Part shown: in pieces, positions 9,582-36,155 of the stretch | How positions within the stretch are numbered: the first letter of the stretch is position 1 | How the letters are laid out: each line of letters starts with the position of its first letter | DNA from: Trichormus sp. ATA11-4-KO1 | Lineage (GTDB): Bacteria; Cyanobacteriota; Cyanobacteriia; Cyanobacteriales; Nostocaceae | NCBI GenBank assembly: GCA_019358915.1 | Contig: JAHHIM010000055.1 | Span: 96,001 to 160,000 of the forward strand | Direction of reading: 5' to 3' | Length of the DNA stretch: 64,000 nt | Program-made: the position numbers and the translations under genes | The notes under the pieces: generated by a model | What the model saw: the letters and a program-made list of their open reading frames with translations, nothing else | What the model was told of the DNA's origin: nothing | The model's database searches: none

Positions 9582-9992
9582 ATGTTTGGTTTAGGTATTG
9601 CTAAGACGGCTTCAGGTATCGCTAAGACGGTAACAGGTAAGGTAAAGGATTTTAGGGGTGTGCTTGCTACTAACCCAGGGGCTTTAGGGTTAGCGCTACC
9701 ACCGCAAGTGCAACTTGGCATTAATGTAGCAAACTCCCTGGGACTTAAAATACCTTCGGCAGACGTGCTGAGTAAGCAAGTGATGTCGGAGTTAGACAAA
9801 GCAGTATTCGGGTTGTATCGTCCTAGCACTAAAGACCTTCTCAATGGTCTTAAAGGTAGAGTTAGCACTACCCCTGGATTAGACCAGTACTTGGAACAGT
9901 TAAGAAAGTCGGGTAACAGTACCCTAGATAAGATAGAAGAGGCTACCAATACCGCAGAAGACCTCCTATCATCTATTAACTGGTTACTTTAA
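9582..9992 (+). CDS. Hypothetical protein, possibly late/virion
   Basis: 136-aa ORF preceded by GATTGACTGAATA, the same 13-mer as before the tail-fibre gene at 30331. Confidence 0.6.
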   Translation: MFGLGIAKTASGIAKTVTGKVKDFRGVLATNPGALGLALPPQVQLGINVANSLGLKIPSADVLSKQVMSELDKAVFGLYRPSTKDLLNGLKGRVSTTPGLDQYLEQLRKSGNSTLDKIEEATNTAEDLLSSINWLL

Positions 9993-10559
9993 CATCCACT
10001 GGGTATCCTTAAACTCAAACATCCTAGGCTTGTTACCCCACTGTGATACGTAAGCCATCCATACCTCACCGTGTATATTTAAATACCCGCAGTGAGGTGT
10101 ATTAGACTTACTATCGGGGTATATTTTTTTACACAACTCCTGGATATGGTGCCGTACTTTAGCTAAGTTATGTAGCTTTTCGGTGATGTGAAAGCTCACA
10201 TACTCGGATAAACCAGGTTTAAGTTTACCGTTTTCATAACCACCATACCTTACAAGGGTTGCTTGTCTAGTTATCTCCCGTGTTTCTGTTTGGTAGAACT
10301 TACTGGCAGCAGCTAACCTGTGACATGCAGGTACTACTACCTCTATGTAGTGTTTTATCCACCATAGGCACTGCTTATAAAATCGTACTTTTTTAGTGTT
10401 ACCCCGATTCTCGTTTAGTGTGGTTAGATCGGCGTACTTATCCCATATTTGGTGAAGTTTGGCTACTTTATTTTTATCCTTCTTAGCCGCTTGTACAGCC
10501 CCCCGGATGTCTAAGGGTAGCTGACCCCAGTTAGTATCATTCTCATTGTTACGAGTCAT
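9984..10559 (-). CDS. Hypothetical basic protein downstream of the ncRNA locus
   Basis: 191-aa K/R/H-rich ORF starting 22 nt after the tRNA-like element. Confidence 0.7.
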   Translation of the reverse strand: MTRNNENDTNWGQLPLDIRGAVQAAKKDKNKVAKLHQIWDKYADLTTLNENRGNTKKVRFYKQCLWWIKHYIEVVVPACHRLAAASKFYQTETREITRQATLVRYGGYENGKLKPGLSEYVSFHITEKLHNLAKVRHHIQELCKKIYPDSKSNTPHCGYLNIHGEVWMAYVSQWGNKPRMFEFKDTQWMLK

Positions 10560-10581
10560 TTGTTAACCCAATAAATATTAA

Positions 10582-10657
10582 TGGAGCTAAAGGGAATCGA
10601 ACCCTTGTGCTAATGGTTTCACTTTGGCTTTACCACTAGACGACACCTACTAGCCCC
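10582..10657 (-). ncRNA. tRNA-like RNA resembling an isolated tmRNA tRNA-like domain
   Basis: Acceptor GGGGCTA/TAGCTCC+A with G3:U70; T-arm AAGGG-TTCGATT-CCCTT; stemless D-loop; 8-bp helix CTAGTGGT/ACCATTAG with 14-nt loop. Confidence 0.7.
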
Positions 10658-10659
10658 TT

Positions 10660-11286
10660 AGTGCTTAGTGATTTAAAGTAGCCCGAATACTTTAAACCAC
10701 TAGGCTATACCTTGACCCAGCCTCACCTCTAGCTTGGCTTTCAAGTCTCGGTATATTCACCTTTGGTTTTCCTTGGCTTTACTCAGGCTAGAGGACACTG
10801 AATAAAGACTTACTTGGTAGACCTTAGGTACTTTGTAAATGTAGATGATTTTTTAGGTCGAAGTCTACAGCTCCTTGACTTATGCGGCAAAGCGTCAACC
10901 ACTTTTACGTCCCCCGCTAACGGCTACTTACGTAAGCAGCTACCGCCCATGTATGAAAGTTCTGAGTACTTTGCCCTTATCGTGGGCTACTCTGAGAGTA
11001 CCTTATTTTACTAGCATTAATACTCCCAACGCGCTAGTGTCCCCTGAGTTATTTAATGACCGACAGGTTAGGTCTAATAGCGCTACCTGTAGTTGAGAGT
11101 ACAGGCTTTACGGTTAGCTGAGGCTCTGTCTTTGTCTTAGATTTGGTAGTCTAACCAGCCCTACTAATCCCCAACCGTAAATATTTGCTTTATTCACATC
11201 CAGACTCTGTAGCTCTCGCCGTTCTTTGATGTGGAGGGGTCACCAAACCCTCGCGCGCTATATGAGTTAGATTTCTCTCCCTCACC
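10660..11286 (-). ncRNA. Large (~620 nt) multi-domain structured RNA, ROOL/GOLLD-like in size and context
   Basis: No credible ORF; dedicated promoter; many nested long-range helices and possible kissing loops (see findings). Confidence 0.7.
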
Positions 11287-11291
11287 CTTTT

Positions 11292-11320
11292 ATAATAACA
11301 AGGTTTTCTAAGACTGTCAA
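11292..11320 (-). promoter_or_regulatory. sigma70-type promoter of the ncRNA locus
   Basis: TTGACA(11320-11315)-17 bp-TATTAT(11297-11292) with TGn extension. Confidence 0.8.
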
Positions 11321-11338
11321 CCCTATAATGAAAAATAT

Positions 11339-13504
11339 TTATTCCACTGGTGCGCCACCTATAACCGAGTTTAATCGTGTGCCCAACTTCTTGAAAATAT
11401 TAGCCGGGTTCTGAGCTACCCCGTTCTTTAGAGTCTCGAAGTGGCAATGGTCACCGCTACCTATTCCAGTACTACCCATTGTGGCAATCTGTTGCCCTTT
11501 CTTTACTTGCTCTCCTAACTTGACCAATAGTGTCGTGTTATGTAAATATCTGGTAGCCCAGCCGTTATCATGTCGGATTTTAAGCATATTCCCGGCTCCT
11601 CCTTGGAAGCCTATAGGTGCTACTACTACCCCGTCTCTAGCCGCATAGATTGGGGTACCTTTTTTATTAGCAATATCTATCCCCTTGTGGTTTCTACTAG
11701 CCCCAGGGATACCTGTGTTTCTCAGTCCGAACCCTGACGTTACCGTACCCGTACAAGGATATACCCAAACACCTGGGGTATCCGGTACGTTATTCTGCGG
11801 CATGGGCGCGTTAGGGGTATCGGCGGGCGTGTTATCCAGTACCTCTACCGGGCTGTACACATCTAAGGTAGAGGTATCAGAGGCTAACTTATGCGTTACT
11901 TTGTCGACTAACCAAATACGATCTAAGGGGCTAGGGAAACCTAGAGTACGCACTCCGTCCAATGGCTTCAATGGCATTGAAGCCGGGCTTAAGTTAACTG
12001 TAAACCTACTAGGTAGTCCCTTAACCCTCTTAAACCTAGACCTACTCTGATTTAATAATGCGTCCTGACCTGGACTAGGAGTCCCTGATATAACTTTAGT
12101 CTGGTTACCCGTAGCTGATATGTCTCGTGCTGGGTCTACGTCGATGTTCTTAGTTAGCATTTCCCCGGTTAGCGGTTCTACAGTTGCCTTAGGCTCCTCT
12201 TGAAGTAAACTAGACTCTTCCTGGTTTTTATCTAACGCCTTATCTACTACCTCATACTTGATAAGGTTACCTTCACGGGTTATCGTAAACCCTGTATCAT
12301 TTATTTTGTCCCTGGATTTAATAGTTAACGCCCCGTTATTCTCCGACACCCATAGTCCCGCATAGTTAGCCTCACGGATGAGTAACTGGTAATCGCTAAT
12401 ACCAGATTGGTCTATGTGTTGGTACAACGGGTCTAGAGTAGACTGCCAGTCTAACTTTATCTTATGGGCTTCTGCGATCGCTTGAGCTAGCTGTCTTAGG
12501 CTGGTATCCTTAACCGTCTTATTACGTTTCCGGCGGTTAAGTACCCACCGGATACCTTGCCCCATGACTTGAGTTTTACCTGTTTCATCCCACTTAGTAC
12601 CTTGATGGAAGAACTCGAAACTCACCCCGCACCAGTCGATGATTATTTTATTACCCTTGATAACCTCTTGTACGGTTTCAGGGATACTAGGGCGTAACGC
12701 GGATATGTCAGGTTCTACCTTAGTAGCTACAGGGGTTACTGTAGAACCTTTGTTATAAAATGCTAATCGTTCGTTATAGTATGCTATTGCTGCATCCACT
12801 GTCCAACCCGTCTGCTGTTCAGCAGCACCTGGAAGGCTAGTCCATTCATTCCTGCCTCTTCTTATTGCTTCTCGGATATCCCCAGCCAGTAAAGGCGCTA
12901 TCATCTTACGCTGACCCATTAACCAGAATGCGGCTCTATCCTGGGACGTGGGTAGGAAGTCCTTGAACTTACCAGGGTTCCTAGACTGTATATAACGCCA
13001 GGTCTTAGGTATAATCTGATACCTCCCGGATGCCCTTGTCCATTGAGTGATGGAAGTGGGATAACCTTTGGCGGCTTCTGCTTCTGTAAACCTAGTGTTA
13101 TTTATTCCTGTAAAGTACCATTCACGGGTTATTTGGAAGCTAAAGTAACCCCCAACCTCCCTAACAGCTATCATGTCCAGAAAAGCTTTAACCTGCGGGG
13201 TAAACGGTTCCCCGGTAGACTCTACGCCCACGTTACCATTACCGGGGGTTACTTTAGATGATTCAGGTGCCTGGTTACTGATTACGGGGCTATTATTAGG
13301 GTTAGGGGTTAACTGTCGGATACCCCCGGAGTTTATAGTATGGCTAATCAAAGCTGATGCTATTAAGCCTAGGGGGTCGGATAAAGTAATCATACAGTTA
13401 CTAGATTTATCATTTTGCCCAAGCGTTACTTCCAGGTCTATGAGTTCGTTCTTAGGCTTCCAGACCTGCCCAAAACCCTCTAAGCTAACCTCTACATCCC
13501 TCAT
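11339..13504 (-). CDS. Baseplate-hub-like protein with inserted lambda-R-type muramidase and C-terminal M23 peptidase
   Basis: KAFLDMIAVRE...ASGRYQI...EWTSLPG (lambda R-like); HKGIDIA, YLH, HCHFE (M23); YQHIDQSGISDYQLLIREA (late-control D-like). Confidence 0.8.
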   Translation of the reverse strand: MRDVEVSLEGFGQVWKPKNELIDLEVTLGQNDKSSNCMITLSDPLGLIASALISHTINSGGIRQLTPNPNNSPVISNQAPESSKVTPGNGNVGVESTGEPFTPQVKAFLDMIAVREVGGYFSFQITREWYFTGINNTRFTEAEAAKGYPTSITQWTRASGRYQIIPKTWRYIQSRNPGKFKDFLPTSQDRAAFWLMGQRKMIAPLLAGDIREAIRRGRNEWTSLPGAAEQQTGWTVDAAIAYYNERLAFYNKGSTVTPVATKVEPDISALRPSIPETVQEVIKGNKIIIDWCGVSFEFFHQGTKWDETGKTQVMGQGIRWVLNRRKRNKTVKDTSLRQLAQAIAEAHKIKLDWQSTLDPLYQHIDQSGISDYQLLIREANYAGLWVSENNGALTIKSRDKINDTGFTITREGNLIKYEVVDKALDKNQEESSLLQEEPKATVEPLTGEMLTKNIDVDPARDISATGNQTKVISGTPSPGQDALLNQSRSRFKRVKGLPSRFTVNLSPASMPLKPLDGVRTLGFPSPLDRIWLVDKVTHKLASDTSTLDVYSPVEVLDNTPADTPNAPMPQNNVPDTPGVWVYPCTGTVTSGFGLRNTGIPGASRNHKGIDIANKKGTPIYAARDGVVVAPIGFQGGAGNMLKIRHDNGWATRYLHNTTLLVKLGEQVKKGQQIATMGSTGIGSGDHCHFETLKNGVAQNPANIFKKLGTRLNSVIGGAPVE

Positions 13505-14884: not shown

Positions 14885-17800
14885 TTATACTAACATACTT
14901 AGTAACTGGCTAGGGGTTACTGTGTAACCTATGGGTAACCCTTGGGGCTGGCTAGGTGTTATTTGGGGGTCTTTAGGGTCTTTACGGAGGCAAAAAGGGT
15001 CTACGTCTACCGCAGAAAACCAAGCTACACCCGCCGGGATACAGTCTAACGACAAGGCGTCAATAAATGCGGCTCTAACGTATAAGTGGGCTAGTTGTAA
15101 TGCCCAAATAGCATTTCTGATGTTATTGGGGTCATCTCCCACCATCGTCCTAATCTCATCGTGGATGGTTATCAGAAGTTTCCCGTCTACTCCTAGTTTC
15201 TTATAGAAGTGTCTAGTTAGTAGGATTAACATATCTCTGAAGTCTACACCGGAACTCTGAATAGTCCAGTTTACTCTAGATGGTTTGAAGTCTTTAAACC
15301 CTGCTAGTGACCTACTCATTACATTTTTGAGTAAAGGTGTCTTGGGTACCTTGGAGTCCGCTATGGATTCCATAACGTTAAACGAATCCGATGCTAACCC
15401 CCCTGTGTACCTCTTGAAGCTTCCTAACGCCCCTTCTTCCCTTACGGTTTGACCCTTGAACTTATTGATAAATACTTTACTGTTAGCCTGTGCCTCAGCT
15501 AATGTCATTGTGGGGATGTTCTTTAGAAGCGCGTTAGTATCCCCGGTTAGCCCCTGTCCATAAATGCAGTTACCTGTGATAGTTATTGTGTCACCTTGAC
15601 GCATAACCCAAGTACCTAAAGCTGTAGTAGGACACCATACGGATGTGTTCTCAATGCGAGTTTTAACTAACCTCTGAGCAGTTATGTGCGGCTTGGTTAA
15701 GTTCATTTTTTGGACTTTATTACCGTATCTTGTACCAACAGAAACTCTGTAACCAATCAAATAAGCCGCTAGTTTAAAAGCTTCTGCATGATGCCCCATT
15801 TTCTGAGTTATGCACCAAGTGCCAGTGGCTCGATCTTGATGTCCATCACTAAGTAAAACCCCTAATACAAAAGATTGTAGCTCCCTGTAAGACATTTTCA
15901 GGATCTCCGGTATGTAGTCTGTGCCGTATTTAACCCCAAAAGACTTAAGACCATAACCTGAGCCGCCATTATAAGGGGCTGACACGGTTATATTATTTTC
16001 TTGTTTTATGTTATCTGTGGTGAATATCTGAAATATTGTGTATCCTTCCTTAACTCCTAGCTTCCTTACACGCTTAGACCCATACCATCTGTGATCACCT
16101 GTGCAAACTACAGACCACCCATGACTCATTTCTAACTTATACACCTCAGCGTCTTCGTGATATGTCATATGGGTTATAGGAGACCATTCATTAACCCCTG
16201 TTTCTGCGTTGTAGGCTAATATTTCTGTCCCATGAGATAACTCTGAGTAAACCCTCCAACCTTCTCTAGTCAGCGCTTGAGTATCCATTGGAACACAACC
16301 ATACACCCTGGTCTTAGTATTGTCTCTACTGATACCAGTCTCTTTCGCCATTAAGCTATGAATGTCTGTGGACGCTTCTAAGGTCTCAGCCTTAGCCCCC
16401 GCCACACAAATAAAGCCCATAGGAGTACTTGCATTAATACCTAACACTGAATCACCCATAATGCCCGCTAACCACGCTTCTTCACTGTCAATGTCCGCAC
16501 CTACAAGCACATAACCTTTAGGTGGGGCTACCATAGATTTAAGCTCGGTACCTAAGCGAGACTTTTTAGGGTTAGCCGCTACCTGCCAAAGGTTGTCGGC
16601 ACATCTCCCTGTTATGGTGCCGTTAACAAGTAACGAGGGTAGGGTGACAGGGAAACCTTCAGGCGATTCAGTATGGATGGCGGCTACTCGTTTACGTAAA
16701 CTTACCCAGTTTATTGTAGACACCTTTTCAGCTAACATCTGCTTTACTGAGTCATTAGCCGCACTAAGTACACCCTGTTCAAACGCTGCAACAAAGCCCT
16801 TAGCGAACACGGAGGTAACGTTTTTACCTCTAACTTCTGGATGTGGTAACCACCCGTGTACTTCTGTGTACCATGTTTTATTTTCATCATCCCAGAGCAA
16901 AGGCTCACCCCGCCAAGTTATCCCCATTACTATGGGCACAAAGCGCTTAGATAAGGTTAGGTCACCTTTGGCATAGTCAGATAGCACTTTACGGTACCAA
17001 GCGGGTAACCCTTTATTCTTCCCTGACTTCGCCGGATTCCAGTCTAACGCCAATGCTGGCTTAGGTAGGTTATCAGGGTCACACTGGGATAGGTATTCCT
17101 CCGCTAAAATCATCAAGTCTTTGTTAGTCTTTACGGCTAACTCTTGATACATATTCTCTGCGGTCTCGTAATACTTAGGAAACCTATCAGCATCTAAAGG
17201 TAACCAGCACGACCCTAATAAAATAGACCCGGACTGCGCGACTAAGCTAGGTCTATGGTTAAGGTACTCAGGGTAGAGTCTCTTGAATAGCTGTGCTGTA
17301 TGTAGCACATCTTCACAGCAATACCTGATAACCTCCAGCATGTTATCCCTAACCCAGGGTAGCCCGTCATTAACTATGTTATCTCTAACCCCTTTGTCTA
17401 GTGGTTTGTTAAAGAAGAACTCGTATACCGCAGATAAGCTGTTAGTTGCTGTCTCGCCCATCCAGTCTAGGTTAGTATCTTCGTCTAGATACAAGGGTCT
17501 TTGCTGGTTACTTAAACCACGGCATATTATCCACGCAGACATTAGGTCGAAGAATCGGTTACCCGTATCCTCCATCTGGTACTCAGATGATAAATAAGCT
17601 CTGTCATACTGAGTGTTGTAGTTTACCATTAGGTTATTAAAACCGTAGGGGATAATAGAGGGCATCTGGTCGAAGTCGGTAACCCAAAGTAGCCAACCCC
17701 TAGCAGACATAGCCACAGCGCAAGTAGGTAACCACCTATCCCCCACTTGCACCGTTTCAGTATCTTGGAAGAACACCTTCCCAGATATTGGCTTTTCAAG

Positions 17801-18163
17801 GAGTTTCCATCGCTCACCTTTAGGGCACCAGTATTGCCATTTCCCTTTAATGGTATTGAAGTTAGTGGGTAGTTCTGGGAACTCCCAAGACATAATAGAA
17901 CCTAACGCGTCAAGAGTACTCTTAGTATGTTCTGCGATCGCTTGCTCCAGTTCTTGTTCCAGCGTACCAAAGTTATCAGGGATAGGTAGTTCTGCAACTT
18001 CGTTATTGTCATTGGCTTGATGAAGCCCGAACGGCTTTAGTTTATTTTCTATTTTCTGTTTATCTAGAATACTTAAGGGATTTGAAGGGTAACCCAATAC
18101 CCTTACTTGAAGATCATCGGAAAGCTTTTTAATGTGCATTGGTAATCCTGGTTTATACAACAT
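14885..18163 (-). CDS. Family A DNA polymerase of mitochondrial Pol-gamma type, intein-containing
   Basis: GTITGRC...RLGTELKSMVAPPKGYVLVGADIDSEE, SRVNWTIQSSGVD and ITIHDEIR match Pol-gamma-type motifs; exonuclease DTE, YNTQYDRA, YCCED. Confidence 0.92.
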   Translation of the reverse strand: MLYKPGLPMHIKKLSDDLQVRVLGYPSNPLSILDKQKIENKLKPFGLHQANDNNEVAELPIPDNFGTLEQELEQAIAEHTKSTLDALGSIMSWEFPELPTNFNTIKGKWQYWCPKGERWKLLEKPISGKVFFQDTETVQVGDRWLPTCAVAMSARGWLLWVTDFDQMPSIIPYGFNNLMVNYNTQYDRAYLSSEYQMEDTGNRFFDLMSAWIICRGLSNQQRPLYLDEDTNLDWMGETATNSLSAVYEFFFNKPLDKGVRDNIVNDGLPWVRDNMLEVIRYCCEDVLHTAQLFKRLYPEYLNHRPSLVAQSGSILLGSCWLPLDADRFPKYYETAENMYQELAVKTNKDLMILAEEYLSQCDPDNLPKPALALDWNPAKSGKNKGLPAWYRKVLSDYAKGDLTLSKRFVPIVMGITWRGEPLLWDDENKTWYTEVHGWLPHPEVRGKNVTSVFAKGFVAAFEQGVLSAANDSVKQMLAEKVSTINWVSLRKRVAAIHTESPEGFPVTLPSLLVNGTITGRCADNLWQVAANPKKSRLGTELKSMVAPPKGYVLVGADIDSEEAWLAGIMGDSVLGINASTPMGFICVAGAKAETLEASTDIHSLMAKETGISRDNTKTRVYGCVPMDTQALTREGWRVYSELSHGTEILAYNAETGVNEWSPITHMTYHEDAEVYKLEMSHGWSVVCTGDHRWYGSKRVRKLGVKEGYTIFQIFTTDNIKQENNITVSAPYNGGSGYGLKSFGVKYGTDYIPEILKMSYRELQSFVLGVLLSDGHQDRATGTWCITQKMGHHAEAFKLAAYLIGYRVSVGTRYGNKVQKMNLTKPHITAQRLVKTRIENTSVWCPTTALGTWVMRQGDTITITGNCIYGQGLTGDTNALLKNIPTMTLAEAQANSKVFINKFKGQTVREEGALGSFKRYTGGLASDSFNVMESIADSKVPKTPLLKNVMSRSLAGFKDFKPSRVNWTIQSSGVDFRDMLILLTRHFYKKLGVDGKLLITIHDEIRTMVGDDPNNIRNAIWALQLAHLYVRAAFIDALSLDCIPAGVAWFSAVDVDPFCLRKDPKDPQITPSQPQGLPIGYTVTPSQLLSMLV
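15569..16297 (-). mobile_element. Intein (243 aa) in polymerase motif B
   Basis: YG/CVPMDTQALT...CTGDHRW...VWCPTT...TITGN/CIYG; one LAGLIDADG-like helix FVLGVLLSDG. Confidence 0.9.
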
Positions 18164-26574: not shown

Positions 26575-27044
26575 ACCATAAGTGTCAACCCTATGTTGGT
26601 TTTTAACGTATTATGGTCATTCCAAAGTGGTTAAATGTTAAGCGTAAATAAGCCTTTAACCTTTGACTGGTAAGCATCCCAAAGTGGTTAAATGTTAAGC
26701 GTATAACTTAAGTTAACCTAACCTGTCAACCCTATGTTATTTCTTTGACGTATTTTAGGCATTCCAACGTTACTCACTTGAACGTGTAAAACCTAGGTTA
26801 ACCCTTGAGTAGTGGGCATTCCAACGTTACTCACTTGAACGTGTAAACCATATCACTCGTCGGCTGGCTGACGCTTAGGTTAAGCTAGTCAATAGTTTTG
26901 ACCATAAGTGTCAACCCTATGTTGGTTTTTAACGTATTATGGTCATTCCAAAGTGGCGCTGGGTATGCTTAAGGTTGACCCAAATAACGTCTCAAAACTC
27001 TTGAGAGTCCCTTCTGGCAACGTTTTCAGGTTGACCCAAATAAC
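26575..27044. repeat. Cluster of interleaved direct repeats (candidate origin or control region)
   Basis: Identical pairs: 56 bp (26575/26901), 25 bp (26622/26679), 33 bp (26758/26815), 17 bp (26972/27028). Confidence 0.85.
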
Positions 27045-27977: not shown

Positions 27978-29362
27978 CTACCCGCAGACTAGCTAACGTC
28001 AATACAGTACCCCAAAGCCTAACAGGTGATTATGTATACATAAATAGGGGGGCTTATACTTACAGGCTATCCTTGGAATCGTTAACGTCCGCAGGGTTAG
28101 ACTTGAGTGATTACGTGACCTATACGGTACTTAATGATACCTTATTAGATTACGTAACTAATAATACGCTGACAACGACGTTGGGGGGTTACGTAACCTC
28201 TGACGCGTTTAATCTAGCTTTAGACACTAAGGCAGACGTTACAGCACTTGCCGACTATACGTTAACCACCGATATACGGTTATCAGATGCTAGAGTGCCT
28301 ACAGGAGTGGCGGGAGGGAGCCTAAGTGGTATTTATCCTAACCCAGCGATCGCTAACTCAGGGGTAACCCCTGGGACTTATAACTTCGCCACAGTTACCA
28401 TAGGTGAAGATGGGCGGGTCACGGATGCCCAGACTGGAGTCATCCCTGGGGTACCTGTAGCCTCACCGACTACCTCCGGAACCGTTAAGGTGGACAGTGC
28501 AGTAGCCGACCCTTTGGTGTATTTATCGTCTACCGTAGACTCTTTGTTAGGTGGTTATGTTACATCCGGGGGATTAACTACCATCCTAAACGATTATGTG
28601 ACTAATAGTAGTCTAACTATTACATTAGCGGGGTATGTGCTAGATGCGGATACTCGGCTATCAGATGCTAGGATACCCACAGGCACGGCGGGCGGTAGCT
28701 TGAGTGGTACTTATCCGAACCCAGGATTAAGCGAAGTGCTAATCACTCCAGGGTCATATACTAACGCGGATATTACCGTAAATACCGAAGGAAGGGTTAC
28801 CGCCGTTGCTAATGGTGCAAGCGGGGGCATAACAGAACGTAAGTTTTTTCAGGCTAGGAATCGTTGGTTTACCCCAGCCACCAAAATCACGATAACTAGT
28901 AGCACGGGGGCTATATCCGCTACATACGTTAGGTTATGTCCTATTTATGTCCCGGCTATCGGTATACAATCGTTAGCTGTATCCACTGCATCGTCGGTAA
29001 CAGGGGCTACTGGTAAGTTAGCAATATATTCTGTAGTTGATGGAATGCCTGGAGTGCTTCTAGAGTCATTAGCAGAAGTAGCTATGGATGTACAGGCATT
29101 TTTTGAGTTTGTCATATCCTCTGATTTAGCACAGGGGGAATATTTCATAGGACTGACCACAACTGGTACTGCACCAAGCATGAGGATACATAACTCAACA
29201 ACTAATAATGATTCATACATATCTGCCGGGTCTTTAAGCACAACTTCAGTAATATCTTATGTTAGCCCTACAACGTCAGGGGTATTTCCTGGGGACTTAA
29301 CAGGAGCTACGTTTACTGACTCTAGCTTATCCCCTGTAGTCTGGGTAAAAACTAAAGCATAG
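27974..29362 (+). CDS. Fibre-like structural protein with internal duplication
   Basis: T/G/S-rich; two copies of RLSDAR.PTG.AGGSLSG.YPNP...GRVT. Confidence 0.7.
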   Translation: MTTRRLANVNTVPQSLTGDYVYINRGAYTYRLSLESLTSAGLDLSDYVTYTVLNDTLLDYVTNNTLTTTLGGYVTSDAFNLALDTKADVTALADYTLTTDIRLSDARVPTGVAGGSLSGIYPNPAIANSGVTPGTYNFATVTIGEDGRVTDAQTGVIPGVPVASPTTSGTVKVDSAVADPLVYLSSTVDSLLGGYVTSGGLTTILNDYVTNSSLTITLAGYVLDADTRLSDARIPTGTAGGSLSGTYPNPGLSEVLITPGSYTNADITVNTEGRVTAVANGASGGITERKFFQARNRWFTPATKITITSSTGAISATYVRLCPIYVPAIGIQSLAVSTASSVTGATGKLAIYSVVDGMPGVLLESLAEVAMDVQAFFEFVISSDLAQGEYFIGLTTTGTAPSMRIHNSTTNNDSYISAGSLSTTSVISYVSPTTSGVFPGDLTGATFTDSSLSPVVWVKTKA

Positions 29363-34756: not shown

Positions 34757-35842
34757 TCATATTGGCAACGTGGGTAAATCAGGGCGGTTAATCATATGCC
34801 CATAAGTCTTGATGACCATAGATGTATCACTATGACCAGCCAAATACGCAATACCCGTTAATGGTATCCCTTGCTCTATAGCATGGGAAATCATAGTATG
34901 TCTCATGGTGTACGGCTTACGGTAAGGCACTCCTTGGGCTTTTAACACACTAGCCCATTGGCGGTTACGAAAGTTATCTGCGTCTATAGGTCTCCCTTTG
35001 GGTGTGGTGAACACTAGGCTGTCAGGAGTAACCTTAGCGAGGTTAATAAAACTTAACACAGCTTGTAGCTCTAAGGATAATGGGAGGTGCCTAATATTAC
35101 CAGTCTTGGTCTCTTTACGTATTCTACGGTAGCCGTTACCCGTCAAATCTTTAGGTAAACTTTCCTTAATGGTTATATCCGCCCGGTCGAAGTCAATGTT
35201 ACCCCAGGTTAACCCGATGGCTTCGGAAGTCCTAACACCAGTAGCGAGTAAAAACCTTACAAAGGGGCTATAGTGCGGCTCTAGTGTGTCAAAACCTTCT
35301 AGTATAGCTTTTATCTCACTTAGTGTAAAGGGTTTTATTTCCTTGGGTTTATCCTTACGAGGTTTTATGGTGTCATAAGGGTTACTAAGTATGATACCTC
35401 GGCTAACCGCCCACTTGCAGCAAGCCTTTAGCATACTGAGACGTGTTCTAAAAGTCTTGGGGGATATCTCGGACTTGGTTAGCCATTGGATATCCTCTAA
35501 CCCTGGGTTGGTTTTAGTAATCATTACGCGCGTCCATCGGTAATGGTTAGCCTTGGTACTTTCCGTTAGCTCTAGTGAGTCTACCCATAAATCCCAAAGG
35601 TCTAGTAACTTCTTGGGCTTCGCATAAGGCTTAGGAGATAACCTGTAACTGTTTAATGTACTGTCGAAGTGCCCAGATAGGATATCATTCTGTATTTTGT
35701 TAGCGATCGCAGAAGCCGTAAATAAATCCCTTCTATTCCCGAAGTGTCCACCAGGTATAGGGTTGAAGCTATAGCGCTTACCACCAAAACTAAACTTCAA
35801 CTGGATAGACCCATTATTGTTAACTGGCTTTATTTCTCTCAT
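34757..35842 (-). CDS. int: Tyrosine integrase with N-terminal arm-binding domain
   Basis: TGVRTSEA, K, YTMRHT, AGH, Y catalytic motifs; adjacent to att. Confidence 0.95.
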   Translation of the reverse strand: MREIKPVNNNGSIQLKFSFGGKRYSFNPIPGGHFGNRRDLFTASAIANKIQNDILSGHFDSTLNSYRLSPKPYAKPKKLLDLWDLWVDSLELTESTKANHYRWTRVMITKTNPGLEDIQWLTKSEISPKTFRTRLSMLKACCKWAVSRGIILSNPYDTIKPRKDKPKEIKPFTLSEIKAILEGFDTLEPHYSPFVRFLLATGVRTSEAIGLTWGNIDFDRADITIKESLPKDLTGNGYRRIRKETKTGNIRHLPLSLELQAVLSFINLAKVTPDSLVFTTPKGRPIDADNFRNRQWASVLKAQGVPYRKPYTMRHTMISHAIEQGIPLTGIAYLAGHSDTSMVIKTYGHMINRPDLPTLPI

Positions 35843-35920
35843 TGTCCTAGTGAGGTCTTAAGGTTGACATTATGGCAACCGGGGAAACCATTAAGGGTCA
35901 AGAAGTTAACGTTAATGCTT

Positions 35921-35968
35921 GCTGCGATCGCACCGCAGAGGTCAGGGATTCGAGTTCCCTATTCTCCA
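35921..35968 (+). other. att site: displaced 3' part of tRNA-Ala(CGC)
   Basis: CTGCG-ATCGCAC-CGCAG anticodon arm, AGGTC, AGGGA-TTCGAGT-TCCCT, ATTCTCCA; no D-arm or correctly spaced 5' acceptor strand. Confidence 0.9.
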
Positions 35969-36155
35969 TTTTGACATTAAAATTAAAAACTCTAAATTTG
36001 AGCATAATTTTTCACAGACACGATACTGGGAAAATTTAGCAGGATAATACTTTATCAAATTCTAAATTCAAAAATATAGCTATTAAATAAGGTATGATGC
36101 CGGAATTGTTAACAGTAAAAACTTCCTTAAAATATGATTTAGATGATTCAAGACT

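What the first reader, a model, noticed from the sequence alone, without database searches (positions are those of the whole stretch)
10582..10657. tmRNA-like tRNA domain with no mRNA domain (76-nt alanine-acceptor mimic)
Seen (minus): GGGGCTA GTAGGTGTCGT CTAGTGGT AAAGCCAAAGTGAA ACCATTAG CAC AAGGG TTCGATT CCCTT TAGCTCC A. It has a 7-bp acceptor with G3:U70 and discriminator A, a perfect T-arm, no proper D-stem, a 3-nt linker, and an 8-bp helix with a 14-nt loop in place of an anticodon arm. Known: G3:U70 is the AlaRS determinant, and this layout is that of the tmRNA tRNA-like domain; normal tmRNA has a tag ORF and pseudoknots where this has only a loop. The usual TCGAC and GAC segments read TCGTC and CAC. 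Inference: it could be an SmpB/AlaRS decoy, a tag-free ribosome-rescue RNA, or a decoy for anticodon nucleases. The phage also integrates into a tRNA-Ala gene.
Basis: partly seen in the sequence, partly recalled or inferred. Interest (0 to 1): 0.82.

Follow-up and report, generated by a model that had tools for sequence, protein, structure and literature searches.

The report
Tag-less mini-tmRNA in cyanobacterial prophage
A virus integrated in a filamentous cyanobacterium carries a real 76-base gene for only the alanine-accepting head of the ribosome-rescue RNA tmRNA, a form already known from one mycobacterial phage, and cousins of it turn out to sit unannotated in the stress-induced tRNA operon of the model cyanobacterium Anabaena PCC 7120, where its job can be tested.

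Summary
Confirmed. 10582-10657(-) is a tmRNA tRNA-like domain (TLD) without a message: Rfam tmRNA 41.3 bits with 304 model positions deleted, in a 46.6-kb prophage integrated in tRNA-Ala(CGC). The kind is known: DS6A's 'TLD only' RNA, reported to inhibit tmRNA. This scan found it before on other phage DNA. A model built from 79 other viral copies scores it and DS6A alike, 66.1 bits. In a scan that left the acceptor free, 34 of 34 distinct copies keep G3:U70 and A73. The odd TCGTC/CAC is one swapped pair (A20.G333 to U20.C333), seen in 10 other viral loci. New here: a separate lineage occurs in 17 of 150 same-family genomes and in the TrcR-repressed trn operon of PCC 7120; two papers on that operon never mention tmRNA. 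Best reading: an alanylated, SmpB-binding competitor of host tmRNA (0.5). Rival: tag-free rescue (0.25). Expression, charging and SmpB binding are untested.

The parts
10582..10657 (-). TLD-only (tag-less) tmRNA gene, 76 nt to the discriminator A; G3:U70; U20.C333 variant; cap AAAGCCAAAGTGAA
10570..10581 (-). A/T-rich 3' trailer without encoded CCA (processing and CCA addition inferred)
11292..11322 (-). Sigma-70-type promoter (TTGACA-17-TATTAT, 11 of 12, TG) inside a copy of the prophage's repeated GGTTGAC-N7-GTYAACC element, right arm 5 of 7; the likely promoter of the RNA (inferred)
10658..11290 (-). About 630 nt with no ORF on this strand, between promoter and TLD; only 10660-10800 folds better than shuffles; no relative found
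10764..10798 (-). Degenerate echo of the TLD's D-loop end, helix 5' strand and cap (score 36.5; 14 of 2000 shuffles and 0 of 144 real prophage tiles reach it)
10661..10712 (-). 18-bp hairpin whose base resembles the TLD helix and linker (14 of 17 identity); possible partial tandem duplicate (by eye)
   Evidence: (D4, I1)
9984..10559 (-). 191-aa ORF starting 22 nt after the RNA, probably co-transcribed; no family found
11339..13504 (-). Upstream 721-aa M23-peptidase gene (context)
34757..35981 (.). Tyrosine integrase (34757-35842, minus) and attR (35921-35981, 3' part of tRNA-Ala(CGC)): right end of the prophage (context)

Best explanation
A functional DS6A-type TLD-only RNA. It is transcribed from the phage promoter at 11320 (inferred), cut out by host RNase P and 3' nucleases and given CCA (inferred from tmRNA and tRNA biology), charged with alanine through G3:U70/A73 (determinants shown, charging inferred), and bound by host SmpB and EF-Tu (inferred). 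It competes with host tmRNA for SmpB and for stalled ribosomes. Having no reading frame it cannot add the degradation tag, so its net effect during phage growth is less ssrA tagging and proteolysis of stalled products.
For: All TLD elements are present. Same score as DS6A on an independent model, 66.1 bits, against 30-37 for 3' ends of cyanobacterial tmRNAs. A DS6A-like RNA is reported to inhibit tmRNA, perhaps by titrating SmpB (PMC4131195 passage; PMC11915505 passage; Mao 2009 itself not read). The family is under structural selection: 98.1% of cells paired, covariation 0.773 vs 0.136 shuffled, 79 sequences; free acceptor and T-stem pairs hold in 91-92 of 92. Alanine identity is invariant, 34 of 34, when not imposed by the pattern. 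The host has an intact SmpB and a full tmRNA; SmpB was not found in this phage record or 4 others. The cap is shared with 21 other metagenome loci, so this is not a local deletion.
Against: No expression, charging or binding data. U20.C333 occurs in 0 of 49 full-length bacterial tmRNAs (48 A.G, 1 A.C) and lies in the elbow that SmpB grips, so binding may be weaker. The reported inhibition does not need charging, so invariant G3:U70 is more than a passive sponge requires. Cyanobacteria keep a sister lineage in a translational-stress operon, hard to square with a pure inhibitor. ArfB was not found in this host, so blocking tmRNA in a lysogen could be costly. The three distantly related prophage-bearing genomes and one promoter-sharing genome gave no TLD-only hit.
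Confidence: 0.5

Rival explanations
1. Tag-free rescue or alanine tailing. Ala-TLD with SmpB and EF-Tu enters non-stop ribosomes, takes the nascent chain (perhaps in repeated rounds, giving a short non-templated Ala tail) and helps clear the ribosome by drop-off or splitting. It helps translation under stress rather than blocking rescue.
For: G3:U70/A73 in 34 of 34 viral copies and 21 of 21 cyanobacterial loci. TLD plus SmpB supports polyalanine synthesis without mRNA in vitro (PMC3929946 passage). Message-less tmRNAs persist in mitochondria and some plastids. A sister lineage lies in the TrcR-controlled trn operon, which is induced by translational stress and aids survival by an unexplained route. 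In 13 of 21 loci it is the first RNA behind the promoter region with no tRNA called upstream and at most one downstream.
Against: The only in vivo result known to me, as cited, is inhibition of tmRNA. No release step is evident: no stop codon, and ArfB was not found in this host, although an RqcH-type NFACT protein is. The trn lineage differs from this prophage copy (A20.G333, other cap), and the array itself is horizontally acquired, so the RNA could be a passenger.
Confidence: 0.25
2. SmpB-independent tRNA-shaped decoy: it soaks up host RNases, toxins or defence sensors that read the acceptor and T arm, or occupies AlaRS or EF-Tu.
For: Many family members lie among phage tRNA genes. A sponge role is proposed for trn-operon tRNAs (PMC8421152 section 29). 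The 20.333 pair is looser in this family than in tmRNA.
Against: No anticodon loop for anticodon nucleases. The tmRNA-specific D-loop, 3-nt linker and C21-G332 pair are kept (91 of 92; D-loop and linker letters partly imposed by my patterns), which fits SmpB binding.
Confidence: 0.1
3. A decaying passenger: the family is functional, but this copy and its upstream echoes are no longer used.
For: Rare A7-U66 (1 of 92) and U20.C333 (4 of 92); cap hairpin lacks the usual GG; degenerate copies upstream; not found in distant relatives.
Against: All 20 stem pairs are intact while the sequence is far from every relative (best global score 56 of 76); the cap subtype recurs in 21 loci; strong promoter upstream; both att sites and the integrase are intact.
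Confidence: 0.1
4. A processing signal: the tRNA-like unit directs RNase P and 3' cleavage to mature a 630-nt upstream RNA and free the downstream mRNA, as mascRNA does.
For: It ends a long ORF-free transcript and precedes an ORF by 22 nt; weak mascRNA score, E 0.12.
Against: A long non-coding leader is not a family trait: 4 of 65 loci, this one included, have 500 nt or more ORF-free upstream. Most of the leader is not unusually structured. Alanine identity would not be needed.
Confidence: 0.05

Closest known systems
'TLD only' tmRNA of Mycobacterium phage DS6A (JN698994.1, about 28478-28557; Mao et al. 2009 as cited in PMC4131195 and PMC11915505)
   Same: Length (79 vs 76 nt), G3:U70/A73, stemless D-loop, capped helix 2a, C333 in the linker, no encoded CCA, phage gene; both 66.1 bits on model R1.
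   Different: U20 instead of A20; cap of the AAAGCCAAAGTG subtype instead of the CCGCACGCGG hairpin; cyanobacterial temperate phage; long leader with partial copies.
Standard tmRNA (ssrA, Rfam RF00023)
   Same: Both ends align to the model; the cap resembles the 5' strand of E. coli helix 2 (by eye and motif counts), which points to origin by internal deletion.
   Different: 304 of 374 model positions missing: no tag frame, no pseudoknots; 41.3 bits, under the gathering score.
CDS-less organellar tmRNAs (mitochondrial; about 65-nt Mallomonadaceae plastid genes; PMC11915505 passage)
   Same: TLD without a tag frame.
   Different: Those are the organelle's own tmRNA; this one is extra to a complete host tmRNA. 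No mt-tmRNA match was listed.
Unannotated TLD-only RNA in the Anabaena PCC 7120 trn operon (NC_003273.1, 51739-51819, minus, between tRNA-Glu(TTC) and tRNA-Tyr(GTA); found here)
   Same: Same architecture, G3:U70/A73, no CCA, cyanobacterial setting; 63.8 bits.
   Different: 81 nt, A20.G333, linker GAT, other cap; under a TrcR-box promoter, which the prophage copy lacks.

Membership tests
DS6A-type TLD-only tmRNA | 7-bp acceptor with G3:U70 and A73 | tested here: met
DS6A-type TLD-only tmRNA | Stemless D-loop, helix 2a opened by C21-G332, 3-nt linker, canonical T-arm | tested here: met
   A20.G333 reads U20.C333
DS6A-type TLD-only tmRNA | mRNA-like domain replaced by a short cap, about 65-90 nt in all | tested here: met
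DS6A-type TLD-only tmRNA | Scores like DS6A on a family model built without either | tested here: met
   66.1 bits each
DS6A-type TLD-only tmRNA | Inhibits host tmRNA or binds SmpB | not testable with these tools
   reported for the DS6A form only
Standard tmRNA | Tag reading frame and pseudoknots between the TLD halves | tested here: not met
Permuted (two-piece) tmRNA | 3' TLD half followed by a downstream 5' half and coding piece | tested here: not met
   RF04321 27.8 bits vs gathering 47, with a long insertion; the matching 5' half is upstream and pairs 7 of 7
Canonical tRNA | D-stem and anticodon stem with a 7-nt loop | tested here: not met
att-site relic | Identity to the 3' end of a host tRNA or tmRNA at a prophage end | tested here: not met
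   only a self match; attR lies at 35921-35981
Large phage ncRNAs (GOLLD, ROOL) or Y RNA | Rfam match over the 630-nt leader or the element | tested here: not met
   none listed up to E 10 in 10400-11500
TrcR regulon | TGTAGTAT box at the promoter | tested here: not met
   the only copy on the prophage minus strand is at window 23288; present within 800 nt in 17 of 21 trn-type loci

The most novel reading that the evidence does not exclude
TLD-only RNAs are not just phage blockers of tmRNA but a separate, tag-free arm of ribosome rescue: an alanine donor that works with SmpB on stalled ribosomes, perhaps adding non-templated Ala tails. Phages spread it, and Nostocales cyanobacteria have placed it under TrcR in their translational-stress tRNA operon, keeping it even where the tRNA genes are gone. 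It could explain part of the unexplained survival benefit of the PCC 7120 trn operon.
Probability: 0.25. Interest if true: 0.8.

Novelty: new member of a known kind. Interest (0 to 1): 0.5.

Why it matters
The element itself is one more member of a published but barely studied RNA class that standard annotation misses (ARAGORN silent, under Rfam's cut-off). Its value is the lead it gave. The same class lies in the trn operon of Anabaena PCC 7120, a genetically tractable strain in which the operon's repressor, inducing conditions, deletion mutant and survival phenotype are published while the mechanism is stated to be open. Whether a message-less tmRNA blocks or performs ribosome rescue can be tested there directly, and the answer bears on the many phage copies and on the tag-less tmRNAs of organelles.

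Tried and rejected
Leader as GOLLD, ROOL or another known ncRNA: no Rfam match. Relatives of the leader: none in 50,697 phage records, 400 order genomes (the short hits read are chance, one search shows one is a host tmRNA end and one a promoter-like stretch), or a 16-letter viral scan (37 loci: 1 self, 36 unrelated). Close relatives of the phage: only its own IMG/VR record; best cultured DNA polymerase matches are 26-30% identical. M23 homologues in 3 of 400 genomes share no other protein in 14-kb loci and gave no TLD-only hit, with only 150 of 700-2000 candidates scored per genome. The pattern scan of genome contigs is not specific: of 102 distinct hits 32 pair 7 of 7 and 22 pass all stems; 49 are 3' ends of full tmRNAs. 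G3:U70 in the 92 sequences was imposed by the pattern and is not used as evidence. Model R1 lacks the acceptor pairs because MAFFT staggered the 5' ends. RNA runs: no RNA holder listed, so no reads were laid. Downstream 191-aa protein: no Pfam, PHROG or atlas lead. I found no paper stating what a U20.C333 change does to SmpB binding. Puerto-Galan and Vioque 2012 is not held. Supplement searches found nothing (one file each, about 4 million characters, possibly cut or unreadable).

Full report
OBSERVATION. ARAGORN and Rfam at gathering thresholds find nothing in the window. At E-value level the best match is tmRNA RF00023, 41.3 bits, E 7.6e-15, both model ends aligned and 304 positions skipped. 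Fold z is -3.51, but the lowest-energy fold mispairs the T-arm (-25.8 vs -21.7 kcal/mol for the tRNA-like fold). A descriptor of the whole architecture hits once in the 5.97-Mb genome and never in 100 shuffled windows.

SETTING. The genome's tmRNA tag best matches Nostoc azollae, so the host is a Nostocales-type cyanobacterium (inference). The element lies in a prophage of about 46.6 kb (C55:85326-131981) bounded by a 61-bp repeat of the tRNA-Ala(CGC) 3' end, with terminase, portal, tail sheath, baseplate, a polymerase-gamma-like DNA polymerase and an integrase. The element matches neither host tRNA-Ala nor host tmRNA by blastn. The host has SmpB, a full tmRNA without encoded CCA, an RqcH-type NFACT protein, and no ArfB found with two profiles. 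A near-consensus promoter lies about 630 nt upstream. It is one of a repeated prophage element, GGTTGAC-N7-GTYAACC: 28 matches on both strands in 46.7 kb against 3 in the other 5.92 Mb; this copy has 5 of 7 in the right arm. The leader has no known family or relative. Only its last 140 nt fold well, and these hold two degenerate echoes of the TLD.

KNOWN KIND. Hudson, Lau and Williams 2014 list DS6A as 'TLD only' and say a similar molecule, chargeable or not, strongly inhibits tmRNA, perhaps by titrating SmpB (PMC4131195, passages). Nawrocki, Petrov and Williams 2025 repeat this and add CDS-less plastid and mitochondrial tmRNAs (PMC11915505, passages). Mao et al. 2009 was not read. The DS6A record shows the same layout with a C333 linker and no CCA. 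Six earlier notes of this scan report the class in other phages.

FAMILY. All 92 pair 7 of 7 in the acceptor and 87 pass all three stems. ARAGORN overlapped the match in 2 of the 120 (L070, L116). Pairs not fixed by the pattern covary: acceptor 5, 6 and T-stem 1 hold in 92 of 92 against about 40 shuffled. I aligned 79 of the 92, leaving out 13 of odd length or unclear 5' end: 98.1% of cells paired, covariation 0.773 vs 0.136 (kin are not independent). The model from these scores the window element and DS6A at 66.1 bits each, ends of ordinary cyanobacterial tmRNAs at 30-37. Because the first pattern imposed G3:U70, I rescanned with the acceptor left free: 50 loci, 34 distinct, all G3:U70 and A73. 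The two odd letters face each other (E. coli numbering checked on the record: A20, G333). Among viral copies with sound stems the pair is A.G 72, A.C 9, U.C 4, A.U 3 of 88; a dedicated scan gave 11 U.C loci including this one; full-length tmRNAs gave 0 of 49. The cap is also a subtype: 21 other metagenome loci carry it in a TLD (22 hits, one being this contig). It resembles the 5' strand of E. coli helix 2, suggesting descent from tmRNA by internal deletion (inference).

CYANOBACTERIAL LINEAGE (new lead). The model hits 17 of 150 same-family genomes (18 loci; 31 candidates scored per genome, so a lower bound), 0 of 60 genomes of other families in the relatives sample and 1 of 150 in a phylum-wide sample. 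One copy lies in pCC7120delta of PCC 7120, between tRNA-Glu(TTC) and tRNA-Tyr(GTA) of the trn operon. All 21 loci (15 distinct sequences) pair 7 of 7 with G3:U70 and A73; 17 have an exact TGTAGTAT within 800 nt upstream; 8 lie in long arrays and 13 have no tRNA called upstream and at most one downstream. TGTAGTAT is the footprinted TrcR site of the trn promoter (PMC10272220: abstract, passages, section 8). The operon is induced by translational stress and aids survival by a route the authors leave open (PMC8421152: abstract, passages, sections 21 and 29). 'tmRNA' and 'ssrA' occur 0 times in both main texts and 0 times in the one supplement searched. Ten literature searches (listings only, apart from the papers named) showed no report of this RNA or of the family's breadth, but the library lacks subscription papers, and Puerto-Galan and Vioque 2012 may describe it. 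The RNA is optional: 2 of 16 plasmid matches cover the whole query. Four of 5 carriers tested also gave a full tmRNA. This lineage differs from the prophage copy, and G000 itself has no such array.

MECHANISM. Shown: sequence, stems, alanine determinants, family-wide selection, presence of host partners. From established knowledge: tmRNA is cut by RNase P, charged through G3:U70/A73 and bound by SmpB at the elbow (PMC3968760 passages; PMC3985003 passage); TLD plus SmpB supports template-free polyalanine synthesis in vitro (PMC3929946 passages). Inferred: expression, processing, charging, SmpB binding and every in vivo effect. I put 0.5 on a charged competitor that lowers tagging, 0.25 on tag-free rescue, 0.1 on an SmpB-independent decoy, 0.1 on a decaying copy and 0.05 on a processing signal. 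Against my lead reading: invariant alanine identity exceeds what a sponge needs, hosts keep the RNA in a stress operon, U20.C333 might weaken SmpB binding, and distant relatives of this phage gave no hit. PMC1168896, PMC6202907, PMC8012679 and PMC4236655 were seen as passages and settled nothing on these points.

VERDICT. Real; a new member of a known kind, with a recurring elbow variant. Interest 0.5: the element alone would rate about 0.35; the copy in the PCC 7120 trn operon makes the open question, blocker or rescuer, directly testable.

Noticed in passing
L290:3100-3180 (NC_003273.1 51739-51819, minus); L279-L288, L291-L300: Unannotated TLD-only RNA in the TrcR-type trn operon of PCC 7120 and in 17 of 150 same-family genomes, often the first RNA left where the array is short.
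   Followed up: partly
L288, L292, L293, L295-L298, about 110-200 nt after the TLD-only RNA: A single tRNA-like gene that ARAGORN calls with a different anticodon in different genomes (cta, tga, ttt, agt, tct), followed by a conserved 66-aa and a roughly 240-aa ORF without Pfam family.
   Followed up: no
window 4181, 6629, 8348, 11323, 14605, 14856, 19028, 21525, 22562, 26591-26917 and more: Repeated palindrome GGTTGAC-N7-GTYAACC over -35 boxes, 28 matches in the prophage vs 3 in the rest of the genome: a likely repressor operator or phage promoter family.
   Followed up: partly
window 10658-11290 (minus): 630-nt ORF-free leader with partial echoes of the TLD; a decayed RNA array or an undescribed RNA; no relative found.
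   Followed up: partly
window 14885-18163 (minus): 1092-aa DNA polymerase whose best matches are the polymerase-gamma-like enzymes of cyanophages S-CBWM1, S-TIM5, Mic1 and A-HIS1/2 at 26-30% identity; here in a temperate phage with contractile-tail genes.
   Followed up: no
L125 (G111:C46:32843-32895): A 53-nt match to the promoter upstream of the element in another cyanobacterial family, without the RNA after it.
   Followed up: partly
L213, L102, L089: A TLD-only RNA on a 130.6-kb contig of a Prochlorococcus assembly that is also listed as viral: the class probably occurs in marine cyanophages too.
   Followed up: no
PV588686.1, OR725497.1, PP725410.1 (hits H41-H43): Cultured Streptomyces phages pSt2308, LuckySocke and GiJojo match a family member over 87-100% of its length with no RNA annotated.
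   Followed up: no
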